Source of the DNA: a virus
Length of the DNA stretch: 64,000 bases
Direction: 5' to 3' (one strand)
Virus record (IMG/VR): IMGVR_UViG_3300046167_000883
Span: 1 to 64,000 of that record
Shown here: positions 41,163 through 60,277 of the stretch, one piece after another
How positions within the stretch are numbered: position 1 is the stretch's first letter
Layout: each line of letters starts with the position of its first letter
Notes under the pieces: model-generated
Told to the model about the DNA's origin: nothing
What the model saw: only the letters and a program-made list of their open reading frames with translations
Database searches by the model: none
Program-made: the position numbers and the translations under genes

Positions 41163-43204
41163 TAGAATTCTGGGGTTACAGGAGCTACGATTTCTACGAA
41201 TCTTGCTTCAATTGTGTTTGAATCTTTGTAATTAAACGTGTGCTTCCATTGTGGGCAAAAGAATACTCGGTTTTGTTGAATAATATCATCGTCATAATAA
41301 TAAACAAACTGCTTATAACCAAGATGGGTTTCTAAAAAGTGTAGAATTGAATAAGTTTCCTTTTCGCTTCTATTTGTAAAAGTTAAGTCAAGTGCGTCTA
41401 TTCTGTTTTGATTGCGCGAAATATTTAGTTGTTGGGTAAACGACCTTTTAAAGTTATTAATTCTTGCCCCTTGGTCGACGGGCAATGAAACTTGTTGATC
41501 AGGTTCCCAGAAAAAAGTTCTGGTTAAACTGCCGCCATCATAAAAATCTCCATCACGATAATAAAGTTCATCAGCTATACCCGTGTAAGTTTTTAAACCT
41601 CTTATATTTGAATATGAATTAGTTATAATGGTACTTGAATTTTCTAAAACTTGTCCATTAGACGCATAAAAATAATTATTAAGTTGATTAGGATTTGCCC
41701 CCGTCACTTGATAAACATTAAATTTTTCATGAGAGCCGTCGACAAAGTAAAATTCATAACCCTGATAATCCCAAACTGGATATTTTAGTGAACTTTTTTG
41801 GACAAACCCTTCCCCATCATTTAAAACAGGAGAAACTCGGTCATTAAACATAGAAACATTTAACTCATAAACGTCGCTGCTAATATGTTTTAAATTATAA
41901 TTTGAAATTTGTGACCCACTAAAATTTTGATAATAATCTGTATCTAAATCTATTTGGACTCCGTGTTTTAATTCGCCAAAATTAATACAATCCTCTGTTC
42001 CTGAAAAAGCTACATCTCCAGTTATTGTACCAGTGGTCGCTTTTTCAATTCGGCGCAAAAGACTTTTCATATTTTTTTTGTTCCCTTGAAAAGTCAAATC
42101 CATCTCCGCTTTTATAGAGTTAAGTCCATTTGGCATAATGAACTGATAATAGTTAGACCCGCGCCAAGAAGAATTTGATGCAGAGAATGTTATAGAAGAT
42201 CCATAAATTGGAGAAACGCTTGAAGCTAAATAATCTAAATCTCTACCCAACCTATCCTGAATTTCTGAATATATTGTGGCCCTATCGTCTCTTAAAGATG
42301 TATAAAATAAAGCTTCTTGGAGCTTCCCTGTAAAAGTTTCGTCATAAGTTTCGTCAGATCCAATTGTCCCTACAATATAATTATCTCTTCCAGTTACAAC
42401 ATATCCAGAAATATAATTTTGACCGTCACCCAAACCAACCACTCCAGAGGAGTTGATTGAGTCAAATCCCGCAAATGCGTTTATAATATATCTTTGTCCA
42501 AGATTTACCTCTTCCCCAGTATAACCAAAACCATGCTGGTTGGCATCATTATCCTCCGCAATAGAGAAACCACTAAAAGAATTGGCTTGACCTCTTTCTG
42601 TATAAAGATAAAATCTATTACTATTACCTGTATATACAAAACCTACTCCAAAATCTTTTTTACCTCCACCATAATTTTCTCCAAAAATATAACTAGCTCC
42701 ATATGTATTATATTGATAAATTTCTTTCGCATCGTCACCAAGAGAAGCTATAGTAAAAGTTTCTAACCCATCAATCCCTAATATATGACTTGATAAATTT
42801 CCTGGTTCGTGAATACCATACCCTTCATTTTTTATAAGAAGGTAAGCATTCCTACCACCACTTCTAAAAATCATCGCGGGTTTATTGTTTAGTTCAACAA
42901 AACTGCCCCCAGTTATAATATACGGCATCACTCCAGTATTAATACCAGTCGCGTGTTTTCCGCCAAATTGATCATAAAATTTGGATACAACACCAATATT
43001 GTCTATATCCGCCTCTAAAGTACCATCTTTAAGGTCTGTAGCCGTATAAGATCCAGTTGTGTTTGTAGACACATTAACAACATCAACAACATATTGATTC
43101 GGATCACCATTAAGATTAAACAAAGAATAACCGTGATCAGGGATAGAATCATCTTCTACTACTATAAAATCCCTATTATAATTGAAATTTTCTATAAAAC
43201 TCAT
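41162..43204 (-). CDS. Minor tail protein M-like (distal tail) with N-terminal LamG/lectin-like domain
   Basis: C-terminal FFWEP...LDLTFTNRSEKE...ILHFLETHLG...FFCPQW...ARFVE gpM pattern; N-terminal YSL...FYDQ...KLQEALFY domain; directly after the tape measure gene. Confidence 0.7.
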   Translation of the reverse strand: MSFIENFNYNRDFIVVEDDSIPDHGYSLFNLNGDPNQYVVDVVNVSTNTTGSYTATDLKDGTLEADIDNIGVVSKFYDQFGGKHATGINTGVMPYIITGGSFVELNNKPAMIFRSGGRNAYLLIKNEGYGIHEPGNLSSHILGIDGLETFTIASLGDDAKEIYQYNTYGASYIFGENYGGGKKDFGVGFVYTGNSNRFYLYTERGQANSFSGFSIAEDNDANQHGFGYTGEEVNLGQRYIINAFAGFDSINSSGVVGLGDGQNYISGYVVTGRDNYIVGTIGSDETYDETFTGKLQEALFYTSLRDDRATIYSEIQDRLGRDLDYLASSVSPIYGSSITFSASNSSWRGSNYYQFIMPNGLNSIKAEMDLTFQGNKKNMKSLLRRIEKATTGTITGDVAFSGTEDCINFGELKHGVQIDLDTDYYQNFSGSQISNYNLKHISSDVYELNVSMFNDRVSPVLNDGEGFVQKSSLKYPVWDYQGYEFYFVDGSHEKFNVYQVTGANPNQLNNYFYASNGQVLENSSTIITNSYSNIRGLKTYTGIADELYYRDGDFYDGGSLTRTFFWEPDQQVSLPVDQGARINNFKRSFTQQLNISRNQNRIDALDLTFTNRSEKETYSILHFLETHLGYKQFVYYYDDDIIQQNRVFFCPQWKHTFNYKDSNTIEARFVEIVAPVTPEF

Positions 43205-46200
43205 TTATCTACCTCTGCCGAATAATGAACCCGAAACCCTCTTTTCTTCATTAATTACATTGACTACTACTTCTTTGACTTTTCTTGCGAATTCTTTTGA
43301 TTGTGCTGGATTAGAACCATCGCTAGTTGCGTCTACCGTAGCTCCCCCATCCTTGGCCATATTGATTGTGATATTTACTTCGCCGACATCCGCGCCTTCC
43401 TTGGATGACCCACCAGAAGAGCTTGATGCCACATTTCCAACGGCTCCGCCGTTTTCGTAACGCATCATATTAATGCTGTCCAAAGTATCGCGACCAATAG
43501 CACTTGCAGCTTGTGCAGACATAACATATTCGCCGCCCATAAGAAGGGCGTTGGTGTTTCCAGACATTTCTCCGCCGTTTGCTCTGTTAAACAATGGACC
43601 CGTCAGTAAATTACGAGAAGAACCAGTGAGAGATCCCAAAGTGCTTGAGTTTAATTGATCCATACTCAATGCATCATACGCCCCACCAAAAGCTTTGTAA
43701 GGTTCACCAAGTGGTTCGCCCATAAATCCCTTAAGTCCTTGTGGTGTGGATGATGGTAAATTTTGAAAATACGCTCCAGCCCCAGCAGCAGCCGCATTCA
43801 CAAACGATCCAATTATAGCTTGTTTGAATTGCTCGTCCCTTGCTTTTTCTGCTTGCTTCTTTTCTTCTACAACTCTCGCTTCTTCTTCTACTCTTTGGGT
43901 GTATAAACCAAAAGCTTGTCTTTGTGCATCTTTTAAAGCTCTTCTTGCTGGGCTTTCTCTAAATCTACCAAACGTTGTTAATCTATGACTCTGATCCTCT
44001 AAACTAACAAACGCACCGCTTCCAGTAGATCTTGCTACATCTGTTTTTCCAGACGTTACTTCTTGTTGGGCGAAAGCTAACAAACTTTCCTTACCAACAA
44101 TTTCCCCTGCTCCACGAGTCCCAGGAACAAAGAAGTCCATACCTCTAGCTCTTTTTAATCTTTCGTTCGAAGCGGCGCCGCCGATTTGATTACCTGAAGG
44201 GTCGCTCCAAAATCTTCCACCTTCATATCCACCCGCTGTTTGGGTATAAAGGCCTCCACTTTGCATACCCCTAATCGCGCCAGAATTTAATCTCTCCAAG
44301 AAGTCTACTCCGTATTTTTGAACAGCAGACTTCTTGAGAACATATTCGCCACCAGTTAAAACAGCGGGTACGTCATCGCGAACACCAGATCCGCCAGTTA
44401 CCATTCCGCCAGAATTATATCCAGTTATAGCTTTAGATATTTTCCCTAAAAATCCTCCGCCAGCCGTCTCGTCTCCAAACATAGCATTAGTTAAATTCAT
44501 TGCCGTTCTTTGCGCTATTTGTCTTTGCAACTCTCTTCCAAAATTTAATGCAATTTGCAAGAATGCGTCACCAATAGAATCATAAGCGCCAGTAGCTATT
44601 TTTTCAAAAGTGTCGGCCATAGATTGCTCAAGATTTTCGGCTAAAACCCTTGGCAATTCATCCGCTTGGTTTTTAAGTCTCTCATCAACGTCCTGTGAAT
44701 ATCTTTGAAGTGAAGACATTTGAGACATTTTTTGCTGCTTATTTAAAATTTTCTGGTTCAGTTCATCCTGTACCCTTAGTTCATTATTTTGAGCCTGATA
44801 ACCTTTGACCTGTTTTTCTATTTCGTCTAAAGTATTTGTCTCGTCAAGCAACCCTTTTTCTTTTAAATCTAATACAGCTTGCAAAACTTCTTCGAATGAT
44901 TTCCCAGCCTCTATGGAGTCTAATAAAGTTTGATAATTCTTTTTATCAACAGCTTTACCCTCTAGGGCTTTAACAACATTACTACCTAATTGTGCGCCCA
45001 GTTTCGTTGAAGCTTTTGATTGACTGATTTTGAATTCAAGCAAAGCTTTGTTTGCTTCCAACCTTTCTCTCTCCAGGTCGCTTAGATTTCCCGCCAACTT
45101 CAGCTCTAGTTCGTTTGCTTTGAGTGTATTTTGTGCAAGTTGTACTTTTTGCTGATTATCTTTCGTTAATGGGTTCATCAAAAATTGATCACCACTTAAA
45201 TGCAGCCCAGATGCTGCGCCCTTTCTTTTTAATGACTCTAAATCCGAAGCGCGACTAGCTAGAGTTAATTTATCGCTTGCTGCGGCTTTTTTTTCTTGAG
45301 CTGTCATCGCTTCTGTTTTTGTAGCCTCTAGTAAATTAGTTATGAATGATGCTATATCCATAACATCTTCTACTTTCTTTCTGGAACCACGGCTAGAATA
45401 AACAACAGTTGTTTTTTTATTTTTTTCTGTTCTATCTACAACCTCTTGGAGCTTCTTTCTTCCTTCTTCACCTCCACCCAAAGCGGCAATAGCGGCTACC
45501 ATACTTTCTTTGTTTTTTATTCCGCCAAAAGCCCCTGTTGAAAGTCCTTCAATTCCCCTAAGTTGTTTTTCAAGAACTTTTTCAACGCTTGTGTCTGGGT
45601 CGGCTCCGACCTCTTCTCTTATTTTTCTTTCTCCTGTAATTCTATCCAACTCAGTCTGCAAACTAGCCCTAAACGACCGAACCGCTTCTACATTACCCTC
45701 AGAAAGTTTTACTAAATCAACACCCTCCAATTGTTGGTTTAAATTTTCAAAACCCGTTTTGGTTTTTGTTAACTCTAACAACAATGGGGCAACGACACCA
45801 GCAACCGCAACAGTAGCTCCAATTGCTGGCAAAGCCCTACCAGCCCCAGCTACAAACCTACCAGCCCCAGCTAATTTTCCTGACTTAACTGCGCCACCTG
45901 GTCCACGCCCAAGACTAGTTCCAAAATTTACTAACTTTGTACTAAGCTTGTCCAATGGTCCCTTTAACATAGCCAAACCAGATAACATTGATCCCGCTAA
46001 AGCTAACTCACTGACAAATTTACCTATACCACTCTCAGCCCCACTAAAAGCAGAACTTAAAAAACTTAAAGCTATAGAGGTGGTCATCAAGCGACCCGAA
46101 AAATCTTCCATCGACGCCGTCTGTTTTTTGTTGGCTTTAATCATTCCTTCTACCGTTTTTTCCAAACCTTTAGACATGGGCATATTAATCATACCACCTT

Positions 46201-49054
46201 GATTAAAGTTTGGAATTGCGCCAGTTGGCTCGTCTCTTGTGTTGGTAACAGCAAGACCCATTGGGTTTTGAGCGTTGCGGAGTTTTCCGTTTTGATTTAT
46301 TCTGATTTGATTAATCGGAAGACCTGCGGCCCGTTCTCTACCTACAGCATCTTCTAAAGCAGATTGAGCAAAGTTGGGGATGTAACCCCTAGCGGCTCTG
46401 TAATTTCCATAACGAGTTCTAAGTAAAGTATTAGCCCTTGACTCAATTAATTTTTCCAACCTATTTCTTGTGCTGAGGTCTAATCTTCTTTTTATTTCAC
46501 CTTTTTCCGTAAAATAGGTTCCTCCTGAACCGCCAAGCATATTCATTACTTGCTTTTTGGCTTGTAATTCTGCATTCTTTCTAGCTTCTTTCTTAAAATA
46601 TTCCTTCCTGTTCCCCTTAATGGAGTCGGCCCCAATTTCTTTCATTATTTTGGAGTAAAAACTTTCCACATTTCCAACCGAATCGGAAACTTTAAAATCT
46701 GCTACATTAACATTTTCAGGCAAGCCAAACAATTCTCTAACTCTTTGAATATTCCGACCTCCCCGTATATCGAAATCGCCGCCCTTTTCTCTTATAGCTG
46801 CCCTATAATCCAAAGCTTTTACAATCCCAACTTCAAAAGCAGAACCTATTGCTGCTTGCAAAGCTCCTTTTGCTCCAGCTATTGTTCCAAATCCGCTTTT
46901 AATATCAGCAGTTGAAACCGTTCTTCCCAAAGGTTGGAGTTCGTTAGCGTATTTTGTGGTTTGTTGAATTACACCTTCTTTAATCCTTTTCTCTATTGGG
47001 TCTGAGACTGTCTTTGCTTTGTTTGGTCGAATGCCTCTTGCTATAGCTCCTGTTAATGTTGTTTTTTTACCGCCTATCGAAGCGTCAAGTGGTTTTATTG
47101 GTTTATTCACTCCCATTTGTGGAACAAGAAATCCATAATTACTTACATCTTTTGGAACATATCCACCAGCCGCATTTATCTTTTTCGCTCCAGCGGGAAG
47201 CCCCATAGACCTAACCATATCTTGGTTAAAGATGGCATCTCCACCTCCAGCATAATTAGGGACATAATATTCGCTTGTATTAGCAACCATTGTGCCGTGC
47301 TTACCTCCACCAAAAGCAAAGTTTGGAATTGAAACTACTTTAGCGCTTGATGGTGCGCCACCAACTCCGCGAGAAACATCGCGAGCTTCGGCTGCGATAT
47401 ATCCATCAGCAGCTTTTCCCCTTCTTACGACCCCTTTTTCTCCACCCCTTAAGCCAGCGCCAAAAAGTCCAGGGGTTACAGCAGCAGCAGTCTTTTGAAC
47501 TTTCGCCAATGCTGCGGCTTGTTGGTTGTAAATTCTTAATAGCAATTGTTCTTGAGCTACTTTATTTCCTTCAAGTGCTAAAATCTCTCTTTGAATACTT
47601 TCGTTTTGAAGAAGCGTTTGAAGAACAGATTGTTGTAATGAGTTCTGCGCCTGTGTCGCTTTATTGATACCTAAAACTTGTTGTAGTGACTTCCCACCAA
47701 ACTTAGCCAAATCAATAAATAACTTTGAAAATATCGCCGTAACTATGGCAAGCCCTGGGCCAGTTAAAACTCCGCCTATACCCTTCACAATTCCTTGGGC
47801 GAATTTACTTCCTATTGAATCCCCTTGAAGTAAATCCGTAATTCCAGTGACGACAGAAGAGAAAGCTTTTAAAATATCTTTTGCGGCGTCTGTAAAACCA
47901 ATTTCTCCCATAATAGACGCTAACTTTTGTCCACCCGTTGTTAAATTATTTATTAAAGCTTCTAGGGTGTCATTAAGTTTGGCGTTCTTTGCGTCAAGAC
48001 TACCAGCAGCGCTGGCGGAAGTTTCAAGAGAATTAGCAAATTTGCTTTGTTCAGAATTTAAATCTTCAATTAAATTAATTAAAATGTCACGCTGCCTAAC
48101 ACCAGCAACTTTTTGAATAATCTCGCCAGCTTGGACGCTTTTTAATCCCATCTTATCAAGCTCTGTGGCCAACTCTTGGAATAAAGGAATTGCATCTCTT
48201 ACATTTCCTTGGGTATCTAAAACAGAAATTCCTATATCCTGAAGAGCGGCGAGTGTGTCCGTTCTCCCCATTCTTGCAAAAATGGTTTTAAAGGCGTTAC
48301 CAATAACCGCGCCACCTCGCTGAGTTCTTTCTTGAACTGTGGTTATAACACCCAAAAGCTCATCAAATGAAACACCTGCCACACGAGCGGATGCAGATGC
48401 TCGCTCAAGACCATTAATCAAATCTTCGGTAGATACAGCGAACTTTGTATCAACTTCTGCAAGTTTATCTGCGATCTGGGCCACCGTTAGTCCCGCGCCC
48501 TCAAAACCTTTAATTGCGGCAGTAAGACCTGCCACAGCTTGCTGAGAATCAATGCCAGCCACCCGAACAAGTTTCAACGCCGTTTCAACACGAGAAAGAG
48601 ACTCTTCAACACCTAAACCTTGGCGAGCTAACTCTAACGCACCTTCAGCTACTTGATCAAAAGATGTCGCTGTATTTTGGGCGACCTTAAAAATTCCATT
48701 ACCAAAAGCTTCTAATTCTTTTCTGGTTCCACCAAGAATTGTATTAATTTTTGCAAAAGTCGCTTCCACCTTAACTGTGTTAGATACAAGCGCACCAAAA
48801 GCTTCAGATAGTTTATTAATTACAGCAACAGATGCACCGAAAGCTAAAACACGAGCGTTAGAAGCTTCTAAGGATTTCTGGAACTCGGTGGCTTGTCCAG
48901 TAATCTTGCCCAACGGACGAGAGAGTTTATTAATTGATTCGGCGCCCTTGCCAAAGTTAACTCCTTTCGCTTGGGCTTGTATCCTAGCCAATGCTGCGTC
49001 CACCTTTGTAGTATTTACTGGGGTGAACTCTACTCCTACTCTTGCTCTTGCCAT
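43205..49054 (-). CDS. Tail tape measure protein
   Basis: 1949 aa helical protein; PhageMin_Tail-like region (ELARQGL, GAVIGNAFKTIFAR); C-terminal RDDVPAVLTGGEYV motif. Confidence 0.93.
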   Translation of the reverse strand: MARARVGVEFTPVNTTKVDAALARIQAQAKGVNFGKGAESINKLSRPLGKITGQATEFQKSLEASNARVLAFGASVAVINKLSEAFGALVSNTVKVEATFAKINTILGGTRKELEAFGNGIFKVAQNTATSFDQVAEGALELARQGLGVEESLSRVETALKLVRVAGIDSQQAVAGLTAAIKGFEGAGLTVAQIADKLAEVDTKFAVSTEDLINGLERASASARVAGVSFDELLGVITTVQERTQRGGAVIGNAFKTIFARMGRTDTLAALQDIGISVLDTQGNVRDAIPLFQELATELDKMGLKSVQAGEIIQKVAGVRQRDILINLIEDLNSEQSKFANSLETSASAAGSLDAKNAKLNDTLEALINNLTTGGQKLASIMGEIGFTDAAKDILKAFSSVVTGITDLLQGDSIGSKFAQGIVKGIGGVLTGPGLAIVTAIFSKLFIDLAKFGGKSLQQVLGINKATQAQNSLQQSVLQTLLQNESIQREILALEGNKVAQEQLLLRIYNQQAAALAKVQKTAAAVTPGLFGAGLRGGEKGVVRRGKAADGYIAAEARDVSRGVGGAPSSAKVVSIPNFAFGGGKHGTMVANTSEYYVPNYAGGGDAIFNQDMVRSMGLPAGAKKINAAGGYVPKDVSNYGFLVPQMGVNKPIKPLDASIGGKKTTLTGAIARGIRPNKAKTVSDPIEKRIKEGVIQQTTKYANELQPLGRTVSTADIKSGFGTIAGAKGALQAAIGSAFEVGIVKALDYRAAIREKGGDFDIRGGRNIQRVRELFGLPENVNVADFKVSDSVGNVESFYSKIMKEIGADSIKGNRKEYFKKEARKNAELQAKKQVMNMLGGSGGTYFTEKGEIKRRLDLSTRNRLEKLIESRANTLLRTRYGNYRAARGYIPNFAQSALEDAVGRERAAGLPINQIRINQNGKLRNAQNPMGLAVTNTRDEPTGAIPNFNQGGMINMPMSKGLEKTVEGMIKANKKQTASMEDFSGRLMTTSIALSFLSSAFSGAESGIGKFVSELALAGSMLSGLAMLKGPLDKLSTKLVNFGTSLGRGPGGAVKSGKLAGAGRFVAGAGRALPAIGATVAVAGVVAPLLLELTKTKTGFENLNQQLEGVDLVKLSEGNVEAVRSFRASLQTELDRITGERKIREEVGADPDTSVEKVLEKQLRGIEGLSTGAFGGIKNKESMVAAIAALGGGEEGRKKLQEVVDRTEKNKKTTVVYSSRGSRKKVEDVMDIASFITNLLEATKTEAMTAQEKKAAASDKLTLASRASDLESLKRKGAASGLHLSGDQFLMNPLTKDNQQKVQLAQNTLKANELELKLAGNLSDLERERLEANKALLEFKISQSKASTKLGAQLGSNVVKALEGKAVDKKNYQTLLDSIEAGKSFEEVLQAVLDLKEKGLLDETNTLDEIEKQVKGYQAQNNELRVQDELNQKILNKQQKMSQMSSLQRYSQDVDERLKNQADELPRVLAENLEQSMADTFEKIATGAYDSIGDAFLQIALNFGRELQRQIAQRTAMNLTNAMFGDETAGGGFLGKISKAITGYNSGGMVTGGSGVRDDVPAVLTGGEYVLKKSAVQKYGVDFLERLNSGAIRGMQSGGLYTQTAGGYEGGRFWSDPSGNQIGGAASNERLKRARGMDFFVPGTRGAGEIVGKESLLAFAQQEVTSGKTDVARSTGSGAFVSLEDQSHRLTTFGRFRESPARRALKDAQRQAFGLYTQRVEEEARVVEEKKQAEKARDEQFKQAIIGSFVNAAAAGAGAYFQNLPSSTPQGLKGFMGEPLGEPYKAFGGAYDALSMDQLNSSTLGSLTGSSRNLLTGPLFNRANGGEMSGNTNALLMGGEYVMSAQAASAIGRDTLDSINMMRYENGGAVGNVASSSSGGSSKEGADVGEVNITINMAKDGGATVDATSDGSNPAQSKEFARKVKEVVVNVINEEKRVSGSLFGRGR

Positions 49055-53060: not shown

Positions 53061-54167
53061 ATGGCTAGAAATCGAGTAATTTATCAATCCGAAGCTTTGT
53101 ACGTCAGTGAAGATGCTTCTTCAACTGCGAAAACAAAGCACGAGCAACTCCAAAGAGTTCAATCCGCGAACTATTCCTTTAATATTTCGCGTCAAGACAT
53201 CAATCAGTATGGTCAACTTGGTCGCATTGATTCTGTTGTTTTAGAAGCACCAACGGTATCTTTTGATACGAGCTACTATCTTGGCGATGGTTTCAATGAG
53301 GAAGCTCTTGGGTTTGGCGAAGATAGTGCCTTTGGGGTTGGTTTTGCCTCTGGTCACATGACAGCAACATCTGGCAAAAATCTTTACATTTTGACATCTC
53401 CAGAAGGTGTTGATACAATCCAAAATGATTCAGGTAGTTCTGTAATTGGAATTGGCAACGCTTATTTAACCGATTATACACTTGACGCTTCTGTTGGATC
53501 TATCCCAACGGTTTCTGTATCCTTTGAGGGCGCTAACATCGCAGCAGATAATGCTATTAGTGGTAGCGCTGCTGGTTATAGTGGATTTAGCACCTGCGCA
53601 ATTAAAACAGATGACGGAACTAAATTAACTAATGCAGTTACATTGCCAGCAGCTACAACTGGTGTAGGTTCAGTTACAGCGCTTCGTCCTGGCGACATTT
53701 CAATTGATTTTGGAGACGCTTCTTCACAGGCTGAAGACGGCCCGATTGTTAACATTGATTCAGATGAAGACGGCGCCCACATTCAAAGCGCGTCTCTCTC
53801 AATTGGGATGTCTCGTTCACCACTTGAAAGACTTGGAACTAAGTTCCCGTTTGCAAGAACTGTTGATTTCCCAGTAACCGCCTCCCTTAGTGTTTCTGCT
53901 ATCGTCAATGAAGTTACGGCTGCAAACCTTGCCGATATTATTAGCGGTCAAGATGCAACTACTATTCAAGTGACCTTTAAAGACACTAACGGAACTGCTG
54001 CCGCTTCCTACAAGCTCGTTGGCGCAAAACTTGATTCAGAATCCTTTAGTTCTGCAATTGGTTCCAACAAAACTGCTGATCTAACATTCTCAGTTCAAAT
54101 TGGTGGTCCAAACGATACAACTAATAATATTCTGTTCTCTGGAGCAAACTCAACTACTCCATTTTAA
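53061..54167 (+). CDS. Major tail tube protein
   Basis: Ser/Thr/Ala-rich beta protein, followed by a strong terminator; paralogs elsewhere in the tail module. Confidence 0.7.
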   Translation: MARNRVIYQSEALYVSEDASSTAKTKHEQLQRVQSANYSFNISRQDINQYGQLGRIDSVVLEAPTVSFDTSYYLGDGFNEEALGFGEDSAFGVGFASGHMTATSGKNLYILTSPEGVDTIQNDSGSSVIGIGNAYLTDYTLDASVGSIPTVSVSFEGANIAADNAISGSAAGYSGFSTCAIKTDDGTKLTNAVTLPAATTGVGSVTALRPGDISIDFGDASSQAEDGPIVNIDSDEDGAHIQSASLSIGMSRSPLERLGTKFPFARTVDFPVTASLSVSAIVNEVTAANLADIISGQDATTIQVTFKDTNGTAAASYKLVGAKLDSESFSSAIGSNKTADLTFSVQIGGPNDTTNNILFSGANSTTPF

Positions 54168-54233: not shown

Positions 54234-57200
54234 ATGGCAAGAAATAGGACAATCTACCAATCAGAGGCTATTTATGTTAGCGATAATATTAATTCAATTA
54301 CTAAATCAGAACATAAAAACATAAGTAGGGTACAATCTGCAAATTATGGATTTTCTATTAATAGAGAAAGGGTTAACCAATACGGCCAACTTGGTGAAAT
54401 AGATTCTATTGTAGTTGAGGCGCCAAATGTTGACTTTGAAATGTCCTATTATCTCACCAATGGGGATAATGAATACTTTTTAAATTTGGATACTGGTTAT
54501 GGCGGCTTTTTAAAAAATCAAATAATAAGTTCTGGCCAAAATATCTACATCGCTAACACAAAAGAAGGTTCTGATATAAACGACACAAGCGCCAATGACT
54601 TTAATGTCATTAGTATCGGCAATGCGTTTGTAACAGATTATACAGTAGATTTTGGCGTCGGCTCCCTGCCCAAAGTAAATGTCGGATTCTCTGCTTTAAA
54701 TATTTCCTCTCAAACAAATCTAACAAAAACATCTGGTCATTTTGTTGGTATTGAAAACGCGGGTGTTAATCCACTGAACGGAGTTAAAAGCACACAACAA
54801 ATAGAAGTTCTAGCTGAAATTAATCAATCTGGACAAAGCGCAATTCGTCCATCCGATACATCCATAACAATCACCCCAACAAAAACGCTTGGGGATAACG
54901 ATTCAATATCAATCCTCTCAACACTTGATAGTGGCGCACATATTCAGACAGCTTCGCTTAATGTAAATCTAGATAGAACAAGTTTGCAAAGATTGGGTAG
55001 TAATCTCGCTTATGCTAAAGTTGTAGAACCTCCTACAAATGCCACCGTTTCAATTAGCGCTATAGTTAACGAAGTTAAATCTTCATCTCTTTCTGATATT
55101 TTAGATCACTCAAACGAATATACAATCGAGATAGAATCAGTAGATCCAGACGGATATCAGTTATGTAAGTATTCTTTAGTTGGTGCAAAATTAGACTCAG
55201 AATCTTTTGGCTCTGCCATTGGATCAAATAAAGTTGTTGATTTGACTTTTACAACTCAGTTGGGCGGAATTGGTCAAACTAACTATAATATGTTTTTTGA
55301 GAAATATGGGTTCTTGGATTTCTTCCCTTCAGCAGCCGCCGCATATTCTCTTAGAAATTTAACCGCAGACTTTGATCAAAAAATTGTTAGAGTTCGTAGA
55401 GAATCTGACAACTCTGAAAGAGATTTTACCGAATACGATATTAAAAACGGCACAATGGTTGATTGGGTTAATAAGCAAGTTATTCGCCCATTAGATATTC
55501 GAAAATTGGATGACGCAAATGGCAACCGTCCAGATACAAACGATTTTATTGATACTCCCGCCGCCGCTTATTCTCTTCGTAGTTTAGGGGAGAACCAAGC
55601 AAATATAACAATTGACGATTCTAGCGATGAGAGAGACGGGGAAACTGGAAAGTTCGTAGTACAGACGCGCCGCAACGTGGACGGAGCCACCAAGAGCTTT
55701 ACCGCTGACGAGGTTACTGACGGTACGCTGGAGAATTTTGTAAGTACTGGTGAGGTTGTTTATTCCAGCGACTTCAGCGTGAACGCAAACAACGTAATCC
55801 ACAATGTTGGTGCAACCAAATTAAGTGTAACTGGAAACAATGATGGAATAAGTGACGGCTCCGTCACTAAGGACAATGTACTGAAGGTTGAAAACATTGG
55901 TGATGTTCCTGCTGCCCCGCAGCTTAGAATTAACACCGATGAGTACGAGGACTCAACAAAGGGTTCGGTTACCTTTACTTATTACGTACCAACTGGTCAT
56001 CCTATTGTTGGCAACTACTGGCACATAGGTGCTTCCTTGGCTGTTGATGGAACTGAGACATCTTACTCTCCTGCTGGTGTTCAGATTGTAGGAGGTGTTT
56101 GGACTACAGCTACAGTTGCTTACGAGAACAAGCCAAGTACAAAACGATTTTTAACAATCATTGACGAGGAAGTAGCTGACGGTACTGCACCTGCATTTAT
56201 TCCAGAGGGTGATGTTGGTGACTTCTATTACATCAGTGAAATCAAAGTGTACCGCAACGAGGAGCTAGGGCTTCCTCTTGACCAAGCTACAGGAGCAGCA
56301 GCGGCTTACTCCCTGCGTAACCTTAGCTCAAGCTACACTGGTGATGTTGTAGAGGTACGCCGTAACGTGGACGGGGAGACTGAGGGCTTTACCGCTGCCG
56401 AGGTTACTGACGGTACGATGGAGAAGTGGGTCGAAGGTTGGGAACTTTATACACCCAGTACCAAGACGCTTATAAATGAGCCATACTGGGATTTGATTCC
56501 TACTGATAATCAAAACTTTCAGATAATAAGTAACAATGCTGACTCCGAAAGTGCAAGCTGGCGGCAAGTTAGCTTGGTTAATTCGCAAGACCTTAGAGTT
56601 GGAAAAACCCTAGTTACATTCGATGTAACGGTTAATAGTGGTACACTTAGTACTGGCAACACGGACACTTCACTTTCTTTATACGGAAGGGATGGTTCTT
56701 TAGATGGCAATATTTCTGATATTAAGCAGCTTAGTGAAGGGTTTAATTCGCATATACTGGAAACCGTTGACAACGCATTTGGTCACGTTCCAGATATTTT
56801 CTTTTCCAGCGGACCAAATAGTAAGTTTGACGTAACAATCTCCAACCTCAAGGTCTACAAAAGCGTCGTCAACGAGCTTCCTCTTGACCAAACAAACTCT
56901 TATTCCTCCGTAACCTTTACTGGGACTTGGGCTGAAGCCAAGGCTCACGCTGAGGCTAACGGGGGGAGACTTGCTGTTTTAGATACGCAACAAAAAATTG
57001 ATGCAGCCAATAAATATTTACTGTCCTTGGGAAGCTGGGGGACTCATTGGATTGGGTTAAGCGACATTGATACCGAGGGTTCATTTACTTGGATAACTGG
57101 CAAGGGACTTACCGCGAACCAATGGAAAGACGGCGAACCTAATAATGCTGGAGATGAGGATGTTGTTGAAATTGTAAACGGTGACACTTCAACTGGTGTG

Positions 57201-57380
57201 CGCGGTTGGAATGACAGTAAAGTAACAACTATAAGAAACTTTTATTTGTTTGAAACGCAGGAATCCAAAGCAGCTTACTCCCTGCGTAACCTTAGCTCAA
57301 GCTTCACTGGCAATGTGGTTGAGGTACGCCGTTCAAGCGATGATGCATACACGGAGCTTTACGGCATCCGAGGTTGCTGA
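54234..57380 (+). CDS. Giant tail protein, N-terminal part: tail-tube paralog, four AAYSLR half-domains, CBM-like inserts and a C-type lectin; continues into 57374..60277 across two frameshifts
   Basis: First ~355 aa parallel the tail tube (MARNRxIYQSEA); AAYSLR at about 55340, 55565, 56300 and 57275; TWAEAKAHAEANGGRLA...WIGLSD...EPNN...WND C-type lectin. Confidence 0.8.
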   Translation: MARNRTIYQSEAIYVSDNINSITKSEHKNISRVQSANYGFSINRERVNQYGQLGEIDSIVVEAPNVDFEMSYYLTNGDNEYFLNLDTGYGGFLKNQIISSGQNIYIANTKEGSDINDTSANDFNVISIGNAFVTDYTVDFGVGSLPKVNVGFSALNISSQTNLTKTSGHFVGIENAGVNPLNGVKSTQQIEVLAEINQSGQSAIRPSDTSITITPTKTLGDNDSISILSTLDSGAHIQTASLNVNLDRTSLQRLGSNLAYAKVVEPPTNATVSISAIVNEVKSSSLSDILDHSNEYTIEIESVDPDGYQLCKYSLVGAKLDSESFGSAIGSNKVVDLTFTTQLGGIGQTNYNMFFEKYGFLDFFPSAAAAYSLRNLTADFDQKIVRVRRESDNSERDFTEYDIKNGTMVDWVNKQVIRPLDIRKLDDANGNRPDTNDFIDTPAAAYSLRSLGENQANITIDDSSDERDGETGKFVVQTRRNVDGATKSFTADEVTDGTLENFVSTGEVVYSSDFSVNANNVIHNVGATKLSVTGNNDGISDGSVTKDNVLKVENIGDVPAAPQLRINTDEYEDSTKGSVTFTYYVPTGHPIVGNYWHIGASLAVDGTETSYSPAGVQIVGGVWTTATVAYENKPSTKRFLTIIDEEVADGTAPAFIPEGDVGDFYYISEIKVYRNEELGLPLDQATGAAAAYSLRNLSSSYTGDVVEVRRNVDGETEGFTAAEVTDGTMEKWVEGWELYTPSTKTLINEPYWDLIPTDNQNFQIISNNADSESASWRQVSLVNSQDLRVGKTLVTFDVTVNSGTLSTGNTDTSLSLYGRDGSLDGNISDIKQLSEGFNSHILETVDNAFGHVPDIFFSSGPNSKFDVTISNLKVYKSVVNELPLDQTNSYSSVTFTGTWAEAKAHAEANGGRLAVLDTQQKIDAANKYLLSLGSWGTHWIGLSDIDTEGSFTWITGKGLTANQWKDGEPNNAGDEDVVEIVNGDTSTGVRGWNDSKVTTIRNFYLFETQESKAAYSLRNLSSSFTGNVVEVRRSSDDAYTELYGIRGC

Positions 57381-60277
57381 TGGTACGCTGGACGGATTGG
57401 GTGAATGCGGAGATTGTTCACTATGAATCCGATTTCAGTGAAAATACTAATGGGTGGAATGTAACTGATGGGTCACTGTCGGTGTCAGATGGGGCTATGG
57501 TTCTTGCGCCTAATACGAGTTCAACTACTCATTTTGCGAACAGATCCTCTAGTCTTCCCGTAGGTAAAAAACTTAGGGTCACCTTTGATGTAAAGATTCC
57601 AAGCGGTCAATCTATTGTTACTGGATTTAGAGCCACTGAAGTTAGCGGCGCTTTAATCAAATATGTTACCAGTCAAACTCAGGGTGAGTTTGTTAGCTAC
57701 TCAGAAGAAATAACTCCAACCAACACTGGGTTAATAAGATTTTTTGCCGCCACAAACACGGGCGGAGGCGTAACATTCAGCGGTAATGACTCAGAAAAGC
57801 TAATCATTAAAAACATTGTCGTAACAGTCATTGATGATGACGGACACGTCAGTACTTGGTACGACCAATCAGGCAGCGACAATCACGCAGTGCAGACGGA
57901 TACTGCAAAGCAGCCTAAGATTGTTGAGGGTGGTACGCTACTAAAGGATTCCAATAATAATCCAGAGGTTGTGTTTACTAGAGGTGATGCTCAATTCCTG
58001 ACAGCTTCATCACCCATAGCATTTAATGACGTATTCTTTAAGTTTAGACGTACCGATGCGACTAACGCGACCAACGGTATACTTACTGAAGCATCCAGTG
58101 GAGTATACCCCTACACTTATATCCATCACTCCAGTCAAACATTTTCGTTTGATGGGAATGCAAGTGACACGGTAAACTTATCCTTTAATGGTCAGTACGA
58201 GGAAAACCAAAGTACTGACAAGGGTGGGCTTGTTACTATTGATGACCACTTAGTTTATCTAAACTACACAAGCAATCCAGATGCCATCAGCGATATTGGT
58301 AAGTTGTATAATGGCTCCCCTATTTATGGTAGCTTTGGCGCAGGTGAGTTTATTTTCTACGACTCCGACCAGTCAACAAAGCGCAGAGCTATTGAGGAGA
58401 ACATCGCTAATCACTACGACATTTCCCTAGCAGCCTTCTCGCGGGATGGTACAGTCAAAACTTGGTACGACCAGAGTGAAACCAATGGTGTACCTAATGC
58501 CAATCACGCAGTGCAGACTGACCCTACGAAGCAGCCTAAGATTGTTGTGAATGGGAATCTGTTGGAGGATGGTGTCACATTTGACGAAGCCAATGAAACA
58601 GAACTCAAAGTTACTGGTGACCCAGTTATTACTGCGGACTATACTGGTACTTATAGTGCATTCAGTATTCAAAAGATTAGCAATAGTGAGTCTGGTTATT
58701 TGTACGGGAATGCATCTCCATCGGATGGCTCTTCAATTTATAATAATGGTTCTAATTACGCGGCGACCAACAAAAACAATGCGGCACTTGATGAAATAAG
58801 TAAAACCAGTTCCAAAAATTTACTGTCAGCTGTGTATAATAATGGTGACGCTGGGCTATTAGTAAACGGTGATGGGACAATGGTCGACCAGGGTACTTAT
58901 GACTTTAATGCTGGGACATCTGATTTTATTATCGGAAATAGAAACGGAGGGTCAGAGGCATCTCACTATTTAGATGGAACCATTGCTGAAATCATCATCT
59001 ACAACTCCGACCAGTCAACAAAGCGCAGAGCGATTGAGGAAAACATCGCTAATCACTACAACATTTCTCTAGCAGCCTTCTCGCGGGATGGTACAGTCAG
59101 TACTTGGTACGACCAATCAGGCAGCGACAATCACGCAACTCAGACTGACCCTACGAAGCAGCCTAAGATTGTTGATGGTGGTAGTCTATTAAAGTTAAAT
59201 GGTAAACCATCTATTGATTTCTCTACAGTTGATGGCTACCTTGAACTTAGCCAAGAAGTGGATACTAGCAATAAACCCTGTTCAATTATTGCGGCTACTG
59301 AACCAACAAATAAAGCTTTAATTGGTCAAACTTCAAATCGTCGTCTAGTTTTCAACTCTTCTGATGCTAGATTTGGATTAAGCGTTTCAGCGATAACTGA
59401 GGACTACCCTTCGGTAAGCGGAGGTGCTGTGTTTACGGCTATTCACAACGGAACAACAACTGCTCCTAATGTTGTAATTTACGCAAACGGAAGTGCCTCA
59501 ACAACAAATGATTCAAATCAAGGTTCACCTATGACCGTTGGTGTAATTGATTTCATAGGGGTTAACCTTGGTTCTGCTGTTATTTCTTATTTTGATAAAA
59601 AATTACCAGAAGTAATCATCTACAACTCCGACCAAACAGCCAACCGTACAGCTATTGAGGCTAACATAGGTGAGACCTACGGCATTACTGCAATCCCTGC
59701 TGCTAACGATACAGTCAACGGCTTCGTGCAGACGTGGTACGACCAGAGCGGTAGTGGCAATGACGCGGAGCAGACGACTGCCTCGAAGCAGCCTAAGATT
59801 GTTGTGAATGGCACTTATCTAGGAGAGATAAAGTTTGAGAATGGATTGTACGTACAAAAGACAGGTCTTAGTCTAAGTGGACCATTTTCTACATTTTCTT
59901 TATCCAACGCTAACTCTCAACATAATGGAGCGTTATTAAATTTTGGTACTAGTTTTTCACAGCAATACCGAAGTAACCTAAGCCTCCTATTGCAATATGG
60001 TGACACGAACTTCTCAAGTGCAGGCGCGTATACCGTAGGGGAGCAAAACGTAATGAGCTTCATCTTCGACACAACTGGCTTAGGATACTACAATGGTACA
60101 GAAGTAATTAATGATGCGACTACTGGTGCTACCGCAACTCAATTTAGAGTCGGAAATAGTCCGTTTGGTCTAGATGGGGATGTTAAGGAAATCATCATAT
60201 ACAATTCAAACCAATCAGCCAATCGTCCTGCTATTGAAGCTAACATCGCCAACCAGTACGGCATTACCCTATCTTAA
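57374..60277 (+). CDS. Giant tail protein, C-terminal part: four TWYDQS...EIIIY...AIExNI LamG/arabinofuranosidase-B-like half-domains
   Basis: TWYDQ at about 57854, 58460, 59102 and 59732, each followed by KQPKIV and ending E(I/V/F)IxYxS...RxAIExNI. Confidence 0.8.
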   Translation: MLMVRWTDWVNAEIVHYESDFSENTNGWNVTDGSLSVSDGAMVLAPNTSSTTHFANRSSSLPVGKKLRVTFDVKIPSGQSIVTGFRATEVSGALIKYVTSQTQGEFVSYSEEITPTNTGLIRFFAATNTGGGVTFSGNDSEKLIIKNIVVTVIDDDGHVSTWYDQSGSDNHAVQTDTAKQPKIVEGGTLLKDSNNNPEVVFTRGDAQFLTASSPIAFNDVFFKFRRTDATNATNGILTEASSGVYPYTYIHHSSQTFSFDGNASDTVNLSFNGQYEENQSTDKGGLVTIDDHLVYLNYTSNPDAISDIGKLYNGSPIYGSFGAGEFIFYDSDQSTKRRAIEENIANHYDISLAAFSRDGTVKTWYDQSETNGVPNANHAVQTDPTKQPKIVVNGNLLEDGVTFDEANETELKVTGDPVITADYTGTYSAFSIQKISNSESGYLYGNASPSDGSSIYNNGSNYAATNKNNAALDEISKTSSKNLLSAVYNNGDAGLLVNGDGTMVDQGTYDFNAGTSDFIIGNRNGGSEASHYLDGTIAEIIIYNSDQSTKRRAIEENIANHYNISLAAFSRDGTVSTWYDQSGSDNHATQTDPTKQPKIVDGGSLLKLNGKPSIDFSTVDGYLELSQEVDTSNKPCSIIAATEPTNKALIGQTSNRRLVFNSSDARFGLSVSAITEDYPSVSGGAVFTAIHNGTTTAPNVVIYANGSASTTNDSNQGSPMTVGVIDFIGVNLGSAVISYFDKKLPEVIIYNSDQTANRTAIEANIGETYGITAIPAANDTVNGFVQTWYDQSGSGNDAEQTTASKQPKIVVNGTYLGEIKFENGLYVQKTGLSLSGPFSTFSLSNANSQHNGALLNFGTSFSQQYRSNLSLLLQYGDTNFSSAGAYTVGEQNVMSFIFDTTGLGYYNGTEVINDATTGATATQFRVGNSPFGLDGDVKEIIIYNSNQSANRPAIEANIANQYGITLS
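58362..58457 (+). repeat. 96-nt direct repeat, copy 1
   Basis: Matches 59004-59099 with 4 mismatches (compared by eye). Confidence 0.85.
59004..59099 (+). repeat. 96-nt direct repeat, copy 2
   Basis: Matches 58362-58457. Confidence 0.85.

What the first reader, a model, noticed from the sequence alone, without database searches (positions are those of the whole stretch)
54234..60277. Russian-doll adhesin: four lectin-like domains apparently nested inside each other and fused to a tail-tube paralog
Seen: once two indels are repaired, the ~2000 aa protein has four N-halves (AAYSLR..VRR..FT..DGT..WV/FV) in a row at about 55340, 55565, 56300 and 57275, then four C-halves (TWYDQS..KQPKIV..EIIIY..AIExNI) in a row at about 57854, 58460, 59102 and 59732. 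Known: in ordinary LamG/arabinofuranosidase-B-like proteins these halves form one contiguous domain, as in the single copy at the start of 41162..43204. The linkers also pair concentrically: LPLDQ precedes N-halves 3 and 4, ISLAAFSR follows C-halves 1 and 2, and the outer junctions differ. Inference: each domain is inserted in the same loop of the previous one (A1(A2(A3(A4-B4)B3)B2)B1), with CBM-like inserts and a C-type lectin as side branches. This would give an extensible glycan-binding arm built directly into the tail tube.
Basis: partly seen in the sequence, partly recalled or inferred. Interest (0 to 1): 0.85.

Follow-up and report, generated by a model that had tools for sequence, protein, structure and literature searches.

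The report
Nested lectin domains on tail-tube paralog
A phage tail-tube paralog carries a roughly 1650-residue arm in which four sugar-binding-type domains appear to sit one inside the other like Russian dolls. The design recurs in over a thousand unannotated proteins of uncultured viruses, but this copy is broken by two one-base insertions.

Summary
ORFs 54234..57380 and 57374..60277 are one gene broken by two single-base insertions 46 nt apart, both inside N-motif 4. Read through, it gives 2013 aa: four N-motifs, then four WYDQS...EIIIY..AIExNI bodies.

The nested reading is well supported, but indirectly.
- Pfam places the N-motif at the first strands of the GH54 arabinofuranosidase catalytic beta-sandwich.
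- Of 120 homologs, 99 show N-run then C-run with equal counts (65 NNNCCC, 32 NNCC, 2 NNNNCCCC). After correcting split motifs and truncated gene calls, about 107 of 114 balance. Eight real exceptions differ by one.
- An AF2 model of a 3+3 homolog aligns to GH54 (Z 22.5, 247 residues) over model residues 78..720, which is N2 plus C2. Other lectin folds align over about 25..924, which is N1 plus C3.
- Divergence patterns favour the concentric assignment in 299 of 300 bootstraps.

The N-terminal 355 aa are 44% identical to the adjacent 368-aa protein, whose model matches T5 pb6/p140 tail tube proteins.

"Halves" is inexact: the pieces are a 48-aa cap and a 190-aa body. "Extensible" is untested. 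The window's own protein could not be modelled. Recursive nesting has a precedent in cyanobacterial RNA polymerase Si3. I rate this a new variant of a known kind.

The parts
54234..60277 (+). One tail protein gene of ~2013 aa, present as two ORFs (54234..57380 and 57374..60277)
54234..55298 (+). T5-type double-domain tail tube protein paralog (aa 1-355)
   Evidence: 44% identity to 53061..54167. Tail-tube HMM E 9e-110. Fold of the paralog matches T5 pb6/p140.
55332..55478 (+). N-cap 1 (outermost shell, type N1)
55557..55724 (+). N-cap 2 (type N2, with a ~20-aa insertion between its first two strands)
55725..56273 (+). Insert 2, ~183 aa, no family found. CBM-like is inferred only.
   Evidence: no Pfam hit
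56295..56438 (+). N-cap 3 (type N3), preceded by LPLDQ
56439..56873 (+). Insert 3, ~145 aa, no family found
56925..57218 (+). C-type lectin domain with EPN and WND motifs and no cysteines
   Evidence: Pfam PF00059, 36-41 bits against a cut-off of 22.6. Motifs read from the sequence.
57264..57403 (+). N-cap 4 (type N3), broken by two +1 insertions near 57348 and 57394
57370..57382 (+). GAGG, then ORF1 stop TGA (57378-80) overlapping ATG (57380-82) of ORF2. All arise from the codons for the motif EVADG.
   Evidence: read directly
57404..57832 (+). Insert 4 at the centre of the nest, ~140 aa
   Evidence: no family. The equivalent insert in homolog P0004 matches a porphyran-binding CBM, Z 10.1.
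57833..58429 (+). Body 1 (innermost, pairs with N4)
58442..59071 (+). Body 2 (pairs with N3), preceded by ISLAAFSR
59084..59692 (+). Body 3 (pairs with N2), preceded by ISLAAFSR
59714..60274 (+). Body 4 (outermost, pairs with N1), preceded by IPAANDTVNG
53061..54167 (+). Plain tail tube protein, 368 aa
   Evidence: AF2 pLDDT 88.8, pTM 0.87. Foldseek: T5 p140 7qg9_G E 4e-12, T5 pb6 9iny/5ngj, DT57C, P74-26.
41162..43204 (-). Minor tail protein (lambda gpM-type Phage_min_tail C-terminus) with one contiguous cap-plus-body domain at its start

Best explanation
The interval encodes one phage tail protein of about 2013 aa. Residues 1-355 are a paralog of the neighbouring T5-type tail tube protein, which has two tube domains per chain and forms trimeric rings in T5. 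The paralog should therefore occupy a ring position in the tube or tail tip.

Its C-terminus carries a ~1650-aa arm built from four homologous GH54/concanavalin-A-like beta-sandwich domains. Each domain is discontinuous. A 48-aa N-cap (three strands and two short helices) is separated from its ~190-aa body, and the next domain sits in the loop between them. The topology is TTP-N1(N2(ins2, N3(ins3, C-type lectin, N4(ins4)C1)C2)C3)C4.

Consequences, all inferred:
- The outermost shell is next to the tube and the innermost shell with its inserts is the tip.
- Every joint between shells is held by two linkers, not one.
- New binding modules can be added at the tip loop without disturbing the proximal framework.

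The framework motifs are conserved while the body cores are hypervariable. Together with the lectin and CBM-like side branches, this points to reversible binding of host surface glycans, like T5 side fibres or decorated tail tube proteins.

In this assembly the gene is interrupted by two +1 insertions in N-cap 4. These are either assembly errors or a real inactivation.
For: - The motifs and the two insertions are read directly from the sequence.
- The N-motif maps to profile positions 13-44 of the GH54 catalytic domain PF09206. In that solved fold, cap and body form one sandwich.
- Census of the 120 best homologs: 65 NNNCCC, 32 NNCC, 2 NNNNCCCC, and none interleaved.
- Most apparent imbalances are motifs split by inserts or truncated gene calls.
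- P0005 (L007) has a complete contiguous domain lying between an outer N-cap and an outer body.
- AF2 of the 3+3 homolog P0004 gives pLDDT 78.7, pTM 0.62, and caps at 86-96.
- VIA-align of that model: GH54 1wd3/6sxt at Z 22.4-22.6, rmsd 2.8-2.9, 247-249 aligned, model 78..720 to chain 18..334 (N2+C2).
- VIA-align, other hits: AbnA domain 4, Pan3 tailspike, BoNT Hcn and sialidase lectin domains at Z 14-18 over model ~25..925 (N1+C3). Apart from two odd rows (PilC 7oa8, model 53..719; 1w0o, model 100..908 at rmsd 12.5), no row joins N1 to C2 or N2 to C3.
- Distance-matrix correlations: N1-C3 0.63, N2-C2 0.62, N3-C1 0.47. Each is the best C partner for its N. The concentric assignment is best in 299 of 300 bootstraps.
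- The window's subtypes mirror each other.
- Tail tube identity. T5 ring architecture: PMC10038345.
Against:
- The innermost pairing (N3-C1 in the homolog, N4-C1 here) is supported only by elimination, by contiguous examples, and by a weak divergence signal (positive in 74% of bootstraps).
- Eight homologs are genuinely unbalanced by one: P0008, P0075, P0081 and P0037 have an extra body; P0010, P0090, P0114 and P0117 have an extra cap. LamG and pentraxin folds align to the body alone. A body can therefore probably fold without a cap.
- The concentric divergence pattern could also arise from replacement of central gene blocks by recombination.
- The AF2 monomer cannot exclude swapping between subunits.
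- Glycan binding and virion location are inferred.
Confidence: 0.75

Rival explanations
1. Beads on a string. The N-motifs are small independent modules or linkers in tandem, the inserts are separate domains, and the four bodies are self-sufficient LamG-like domains. Nothing is nested.
For: LamG, pentraxin and CBM40-type folds align to a body alone (model 770..928 and 565..720). Eight homologs have one cap or one body too many.
Against: Equal counts hold in about 107 of 114 informative homologs. The caps are part of the GH54 sandwich by profile and in the model. Caps have pLDDT 86-96 as beta strands, which need a sheet partner. Divergence is concentric.
Confidence: 0.1
2. The caps do complete the bodies, but between chains.
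For: T5-type tube proteins form trimers, and many phage fibres are intertwined trimers. The monomer AF2 model cannot test this.
Against: The short 10-14-aa linkers between successive bodies and between successive caps fit intrachain concentric closure. The model closes all shells within one chain at pTM 0.62. Most homologs lack the tube domain.
Confidence: 0.08
3. The gene is dead in this phage. The two insertions are real, so only a 1048-aa product with three unpaired caps is made, and the downstream ORF is untranslated remains.
For: Two frame changes lie in 46 nt of an otherwise cleanly coding window. A second assembly (L004) also carries two +1 insertions in its cap region relative to the 98%-identical L002.
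Against: The downstream 967 codons are fully open and all their motifs are intact, so any inactivation is very recent. Both cases lie in internally repeated DNA, where consensus errors are likely. Reads could not be examined.
Confidence: 0.25

Closest known systems
GH54 alpha-L-arabinofuranosidase B catalytic domain (PDB 1WD3, 6SXT; Pfam PF09206)
   Same: Same beta-sandwich, including the N-terminal strands that form the cap. Z 22.5, rmsd 2.8 A, 247 aligned. The N-motif hits profile positions 13-44.
   Different: Only 16-17% identity. The window scores below the Pfam cut-off and matches only the cap. The body cores are hypervariable among homologs, so no conserved catalytic site is visible. 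There is no AbfB beta-trefoil. In GH54 the domain is contiguous.
Recursive nesting of hybrid-motif (SBHM/HABAS) domains in cyanobacterial RNA polymerase beta' Si3
   Same: Homologous domains inserted into one another over several levels. Six levels are reported (PMC13114784).
   Different: Different fold, different cellular machine and different function. There it is one lineage-specific insertion. Here it is a large, variable family of virion proteins with 2 to at least 5 levels and branches.
T5 tail tube protein pb6 and its paralog p140
   Same: Two tube domains per chain. There is a paralog pair. In pb6 the decoration is C-terminal, and the p140 ring is where the three side fibres are anchored.
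   Different: pb6 carries one Ig-like domain and p140 none. Fibres attach through a separate collar protein. Here a 1650-aa arm is fused directly to the paralog. Sequence similarity to T5 proteins is about 12%.
Synechococcus phage S-CBS4 gp059 (virion structural protein) and cyanopodophage Pan3 tailspike (PDB 9VYH)
   Same: Single copies of the same domain type in cultured phages' virion proteins (Z 17-18).
   Different: Not nested. About 30% identity or less.

Membership tests
GH54 catalytic domain (PF09206) | Beta-sandwich fold including the N-terminal strands | tested here: met
   VIA-align Z 22.4-22.6, 247-249 aligned, on the homolog model
GH54 catalytic domain (PF09206) | Profile score above Pfam's gathering cut-off over most of the profile | tested here: not met
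   23.9 bits against 25, and only profile positions 13-44 of 315
GH54 catalytic domain (PF09206) | Conserved catalytic acidic residues (E221 is named in the 6SXR title; the acid/base residue from memory) | tested here: inconclusive
   No residue-level structural alignment was available. The 58-sequence alignment shows no invariant acidic residue in the body cores.
GH54 catalytic domain (PF09206) | Accompanying AbfB arabinose-binding beta-trefoil | tested here: not met
   No such Pfam hit in P0001 or P0002
LamG / concanavalin A-like lectin superfamily | Jelly-roll sandwich of the body | tested here: met
   LamG, pentraxin and CBM40 chains at Z 10-12.8 on body 3 or 2 of the model. PF13385 is precomputed on about a dozen homologs.
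Recursively nested (discontinuous) domain architecture | N and C segments of one domain flank a complete further domain and pack together | tested here: met
   In the homolog model, N2+C2 and N1+C3 each align as one rigid domain. P0005 has a contiguous inner domain between an outer cap and body.
Recursively nested (discontinuous) domain architecture | The same packing in the window's own four shells | not testable with these tools
Indirect support comes from the mirror order of subtypes.
T5-type tail tube protein | Double tail-tube-domain fold | tested here: met
   Foldseek 7qg9_G E 4e-12, 9iny_A 5e-11, 8ed0_A 1e-10, probability 1.0. This is for the 368-aa paralog, which is 44% identical to aa 1-355.
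T5-type tail tube protein | Sequence family membership | tested here: not met
   No Pfam or PHROG hit for the window proteins. Only an Atlas lead to Phage_tube_2.
T5-type tail tube protein | Assembly into trimeric rings in the virion | not testable with these tools
   Needs cryo-EM or proteomics
C-type lectin (PF00059) | Profile above cut-off; EPN and WND sugar/Ca motifs | tested here: met
   36.3 and 41.2 bits against 22.6. EPN and WND are read. The usual cysteines are absent.

The most novel reading that the evidence does not exclude
The two insertions are real and adaptive, not lethal. Together they create an ORF1 stop that overlaps an in-frame ATG with a GAGG 6 nt upstream. The nest would then be made as two polypeptides: a tube paralog with caps 1-3, and a second chain with bodies 1-4. 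These would reassemble in trans through three cap-body pairs, forming a natural split-protein clamp that hangs a separately made lectin array on the tail tube.
Probability: 0.08. Interest if true: 0.85.

Novelty: new variant of a known kind. Interest (0 to 1): 0.66.

Why it matters
If the nesting is real, a large and entirely unannotated family of virion proteins from uncultured phages builds its host-binding arms by inserting a lectin-type domain into itself. There are more than 1000 hits, all labelled 'hypothetical protein'. Nesting depth is two to at least five levels, sometimes branched.

This would be a second natural example of deep homotypic nesting, and a much more variable one than RNA polymerase Si3. 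It would be a useful test case for domain parsers, structure predictors and folding studies.

It also suggests how phages can add or swap binding modules at the tip of an arm while keeping a conserved, doubly tethered stalk. In addition, it shows a tail tube paralog used as the anchor for such an arm.

Tried and rejected
The reality of the two insertions could therefore not be checked.
- No DNA match for the gene and no protein match for the tube protein among 50,697 phage records. Only S-CBS4 matched the bodies.
- An exact-pattern scan around the frameshift in viral contigs found nothing. The metagenome scan with the lectin/N4 segment found only a non-orthologous homolog, L046.
- A 'longer' protein search found no intact ortholog.
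- The tail-tube part found no close relative in viral contigs, and no tube gene lies near the nest genes in the 46 fetched loci L001-L046.
- The inserts gave no Pfam family.
- PDB sequence searches gave nothing useful for the homolog P0005 (L007) or for the tube profile.
- Motif subtype pairing in two-shell proteins was not clean, because C-start types depend on the preceding linker. I did not use it as evidence.
- I considered programmed frameshifting and rejected it. There are two shifts 46 nt apart within a conserved structural motif, with no slippery context.
Full report
**What is in the sequence**

Two plus-strand ORFs, 54234..57380 (1048 aa, P0001) and 57374..60277 (967 aa, P0002), abut at the finding's centre. 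Reading the three frames across 57240-57440 shows that the fourth N-motif starts in frame 0 (…AAYSLRNLSSSFTGNVVEVRRSSDDA). It continues in frame 1 (TRSFTASEVADGTLD) and ends in frame 2 (DWV…).

Each step is one extra base, near 57348 and near 57394. With both skipped, N4 has exactly the length of N3. The spacing of two DNA repeats shared by N3 and N4 is 969 and 970 nt, which confirms the first insertion independently.

The read-through is 2013 aa without a stop. N-motifs start at aa 369, 444, 690 and 1013. WYDQS starts at aa 1208, 1410, 1624 and 1834. The EIIIY..AIExNI ends lie at aa 1371, 1585, 1792 and 1985.

**What the two motif classes are**

Pfam places N4 on positions 13-44 of the GH54 alpha-L-arabinofuranosidase catalytic domain (23.9 bits, just under the cut-off). 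That domain is a single concanavalin-A-like sandwich. In it the N-terminal strands, an 'IYDQSG' strand and a C-terminal strand-helix belong together.

The pieces are unequal, though: a ~48-aa cap and a ~190-aa body. A diverged contiguous copy opens the minor tail protein at 41162..43204 on the minus strand.

**Homologs**

A scan of viral contigs with P0002 returned 45 loci. A protein search with the 928-aa homolog P0004 (L002) returned 1055 hits, and every one that carries a source name is called 'hypothetical protein'.

I built HMMs for the cap, the body start and the body end, and counted them in the 120 best hits.

| Pattern | Proteins |
|---|---|
| NNNCCC | 65 |
| NNCC | 32 |
| NNNNCCCC | 2 |
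| Interleaved | 0 |

I then inspected the 22 unequal cases.
- Five 'NNNNCCC' patterns have one cap that appears to be split into two partial hits by an insert of up to 415 aa (one of them, P0020, is ambiguous).
- Three 'NNNCCCC' patterns have one body-start split in the same way.
- Six are gene calls that begin inside or after cap 1.
- Eight are genuine. P0008, P0075, P0081 and P0037 have one extra body. P0010, P0090, P0114 and P0117 have one extra cap.

About 107 of 114 informative proteins are therefore balanced. More distant relatives (27-29% identity) carry the same domain in ordinary serial order, NCNCNC.

P0005 (L007) is the clearest small case. It has an outer cap, a 25-aa linker, a complete contiguous cap-plus-body domain, a 12-aa linker, and an outer body.

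Five very long relatives (2234-3102 aa) were also found. The two shortest show a plain NNCC pattern. The three longest (P0127-P0129, 2601-3102 aa) show runs of 5-7 caps, then bodies, then two more caps and more bodies. These are branched nests, each with one motif unaccounted for.

**Structure test**

AlphaFold2 was run on P0004 with a 58-sequence alignment of 3+3 proteins (A1). It gave mean pLDDT 78.7 and pTM 0.62. The three caps are three-stranded units at pLDDT 86-96. Coordinates are not returned, so I read the pairing from the ranges of structural alignments.

In P0004 the segments are:

| Segment | Residues |
|---|---|
| N1 | 30-75 |
| N2 | 100-146 |
| N3 | 160-206 |
| Insert | 207-325 |
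| C1 | 327-515 |
| C2 | 527-718 |
| C3 | 730-928 |

GH54 structures (1WD3, 6SXT, 2D43) are the top hits in both the Foldseek-seeded and the exhaustive VIA-align searches. They score Z 22.4-22.6, rmsd 2.8-2.9 A, with 247-249 aligned residues over model 78..720 against chain 18..334. C2 alone has about 194 residues. The other ~50 aligned residues, together with the start at chain residue 18 (the cap strands of GH54), are accounted for by N2 and its preceding linker.

A second group aligns over model ~18-44..906-928, which is N1 with C3. It comprises AbnA domain 4, the Pan3 tailspike, neurotoxin Hcn lectin domains and trans-sialidase lectin domains, at Z 14-18. Smaller LamG and pentraxin folds align to a body alone (770..928, 565..720). 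The central insert matches a porphyran-binding CBM (Z 10.1, model 210..325).

No row joins N1 to C2, or N2 to C3 or C1, apart from two odd rows: one starting at residue 53, and one at rmsd 12.5. The model therefore closes shells 1 and 2 concentrically. Shell 3 (N3-C1) follows by elimination only.

**A sequence-only test**

I used 60 proteins with the full NNNCECECE pattern. For each motif position I computed pairwise distance matrices and correlated them.

| Cap | C1 | C2 | C3 |
|---|---|---|---|
| N1 | 0.46 | 0.49 | **0.63** |
| N2 | 0.43 | **0.62** | 0.40 |
| N3 | **0.47** | 0.42 | 0.34 |

Each cap's best body partner is the concentric one. Of the six possible assignments, the concentric one scores highest in 299 of 300 bootstraps. 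The N1 and N2 contrasts exclude zero; the N3 contrast does not.

One caveat applies. Replacement of central gene blocks by recombination would give a similar pattern, so this shows that shells behave as units but does not prove physical contact.

In the window itself, cap subtypes read 1,2,3,3 and body-end subtypes 1,1,2,3. This is a mirror order, consistent with an extra innermost-type shell.

**The tail tube part**

Residues 1-355 are 44% identical to the upstream 368-aa ORF 53061..54167. That family has 938 representatives, most of them 355-420 aa, and has no Pfam or PHROG assignment.

Its AF2 model (pLDDT 88.8, pTM 0.87) matches the following at probability 1.0:
- T5 p140, 7qg9_G, E 4e-12
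- T5 pb6, 9iny and 5ngj
- DT57C tube proteins
- the P74-26 tube

These are the tube proteins with two tube domains per chain, which form trimeric rings. In T5, pb6 carries a C-terminal Ig-like decoration. The paralog p140 forms the ring at which a collar anchors three side fibres (PMC10038345).

A tape measure gene (43205..49054) and a gpM-type minor tail gene lie nearby on the other strand. A third, split tube paralog is at 39090..41162. The 'tail-tube paralog' claim is supported.

None of the 46 homolog loci (L001-L046) has a tube gene next to its nest gene. In L008 the nest gene lies downstream of a tape-measure-like gene. The fusion to a tube domain is thus particular to this phage and to the near-identical fragment P0130.

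**How it most likely works**

The steps shown here are the motif order, the balanced counts, the GH54-type fold of cap plus body, concentric closure in a model of a homolog, the tube fold, and the C-type lectin.

The inferred steps are as follows.
- The paralog occupies one or more tube or tip rings, so three arms project per ring.
- The outermost shell is proximal and the innermost shell, with insert 4, is the tip. Insert 2, insert 3 and the lectin hang off successive loops.
- Each inter-shell joint has two short linkers. The cap-to-cap linker carries a conserved LPLD. The body-to-body linker carries ISLAAFSRDG or IPAANDTVNG. This should make a stiffer and more protease-resistant stalk than single-linker beads.
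- The hypervariable body cores between conserved framework motifs and the conserved DNA at those motifs suit cassette exchange of binding surfaces.
- The function is reversible glycan binding that aids adsorption.

Nothing supports 'extensible'.

**The break**

Two insertions 46 nt apart sit in a window whose other long ORFs are intact. This is not what random error predicts. Both insertions do lie in internally repeated DNA, however.

A second assembly, L004, also has two +1 insertions in caps 1-2 relative to the 98%-identical L002. I could not examine reads.

ORF1's TGA overlaps an ATG in ORF2's frame, with GAGG 6 nt upstream. These letters are the codons of the motif EVADG, so this may be coincidence. 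A split, trans-assembling form is kept as a low-probability reading.

**Novelty**

Recursive insertion of homologous domains is known. A 2026 survey of 2.7 million domains found that single-level insertions dominate and highlighted six-level nesting of hybrid-motif domains in cyanobacterial RNA polymerase Si3 (PMC13114784).

Literature searches found no description of nested GH54/ConA-like domains in phage proteins. Among 50,697 phage records only S-CBS4 carries the domain, as a single copy.

I rate this a new variant of a known kind. The scan's earlier notes on this stretch are first-reader notes only.

Noticed in passing
window 39090-41162 (-): A third tail-tube paralog. The tube HMM matches aa 25-94 and 471-697 (E 1e-35), so a ~375-aa insert splits the tube fold. 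It lies just downstream of the gpM-type minor tail gene and may be the hub-like ring protein.
   Followed up: partly
window 41162-43204 (-): Minor tail protein (Phage_min_tail at aa 563-672) whose N-terminus is one diverged, contiguous cap-plus-body domain of the same family as the nest.
   Followed up: partly
L004:1595-1960 vs L002:1939-2300: A second assembly of a nest gene carries two single-base insertions in caps 1-2 relative to a 98%-identical intact copy from the same metagenome. One extends a C run; the other is a T in non-repetitive context.
   Followed up: yes
P0127, P0128, P0129 (2601-3102 aa): Giant relatives with 5-7 caps, then 3-5 bodies, then two more caps and three more bodies. 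These are branched nests. One further nest begins about 46 aa after a body-start motif, which is a different insertion site. The N-terminus looks leucine-rich-repeat-like.
   Followed up: partly
P0019, P0024, P0060, P0011; P0068, P0108, P0119: Two further insertion hot spots. One is inside the cap, between its first strand (AAYSLR) and second strand (VRR), with inserts up to 415 aa. The other is inside the body-start motif, with an insert of ~130 aa. The window's N2 has a 20-aa insertion at the first of these sites.
   Followed up: partly
window 57370-57382: GAGG-N6-ATG, with the ATG overlapping the upstream TGA. This looks like a coupled restart but is made of the codons for the conserved EVADG.
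   Followed up: partly
L047 (Synechococcus phage S-CBS4 gp059, record 47413-48276): The only cultured-phage match to the bodies. It is a 287-aa single-domain protein annotated as a virion structural protein, in the tail fibre region.
   Followed up: partly
P0130 (478 aa): A near-identical copy of the first 478 aa of the fusion (first difference at residue 424) exists in another sample, so a close relative of this phage has been sequenced elsewhere. Its contig could not be fetched.
   Followed up: no
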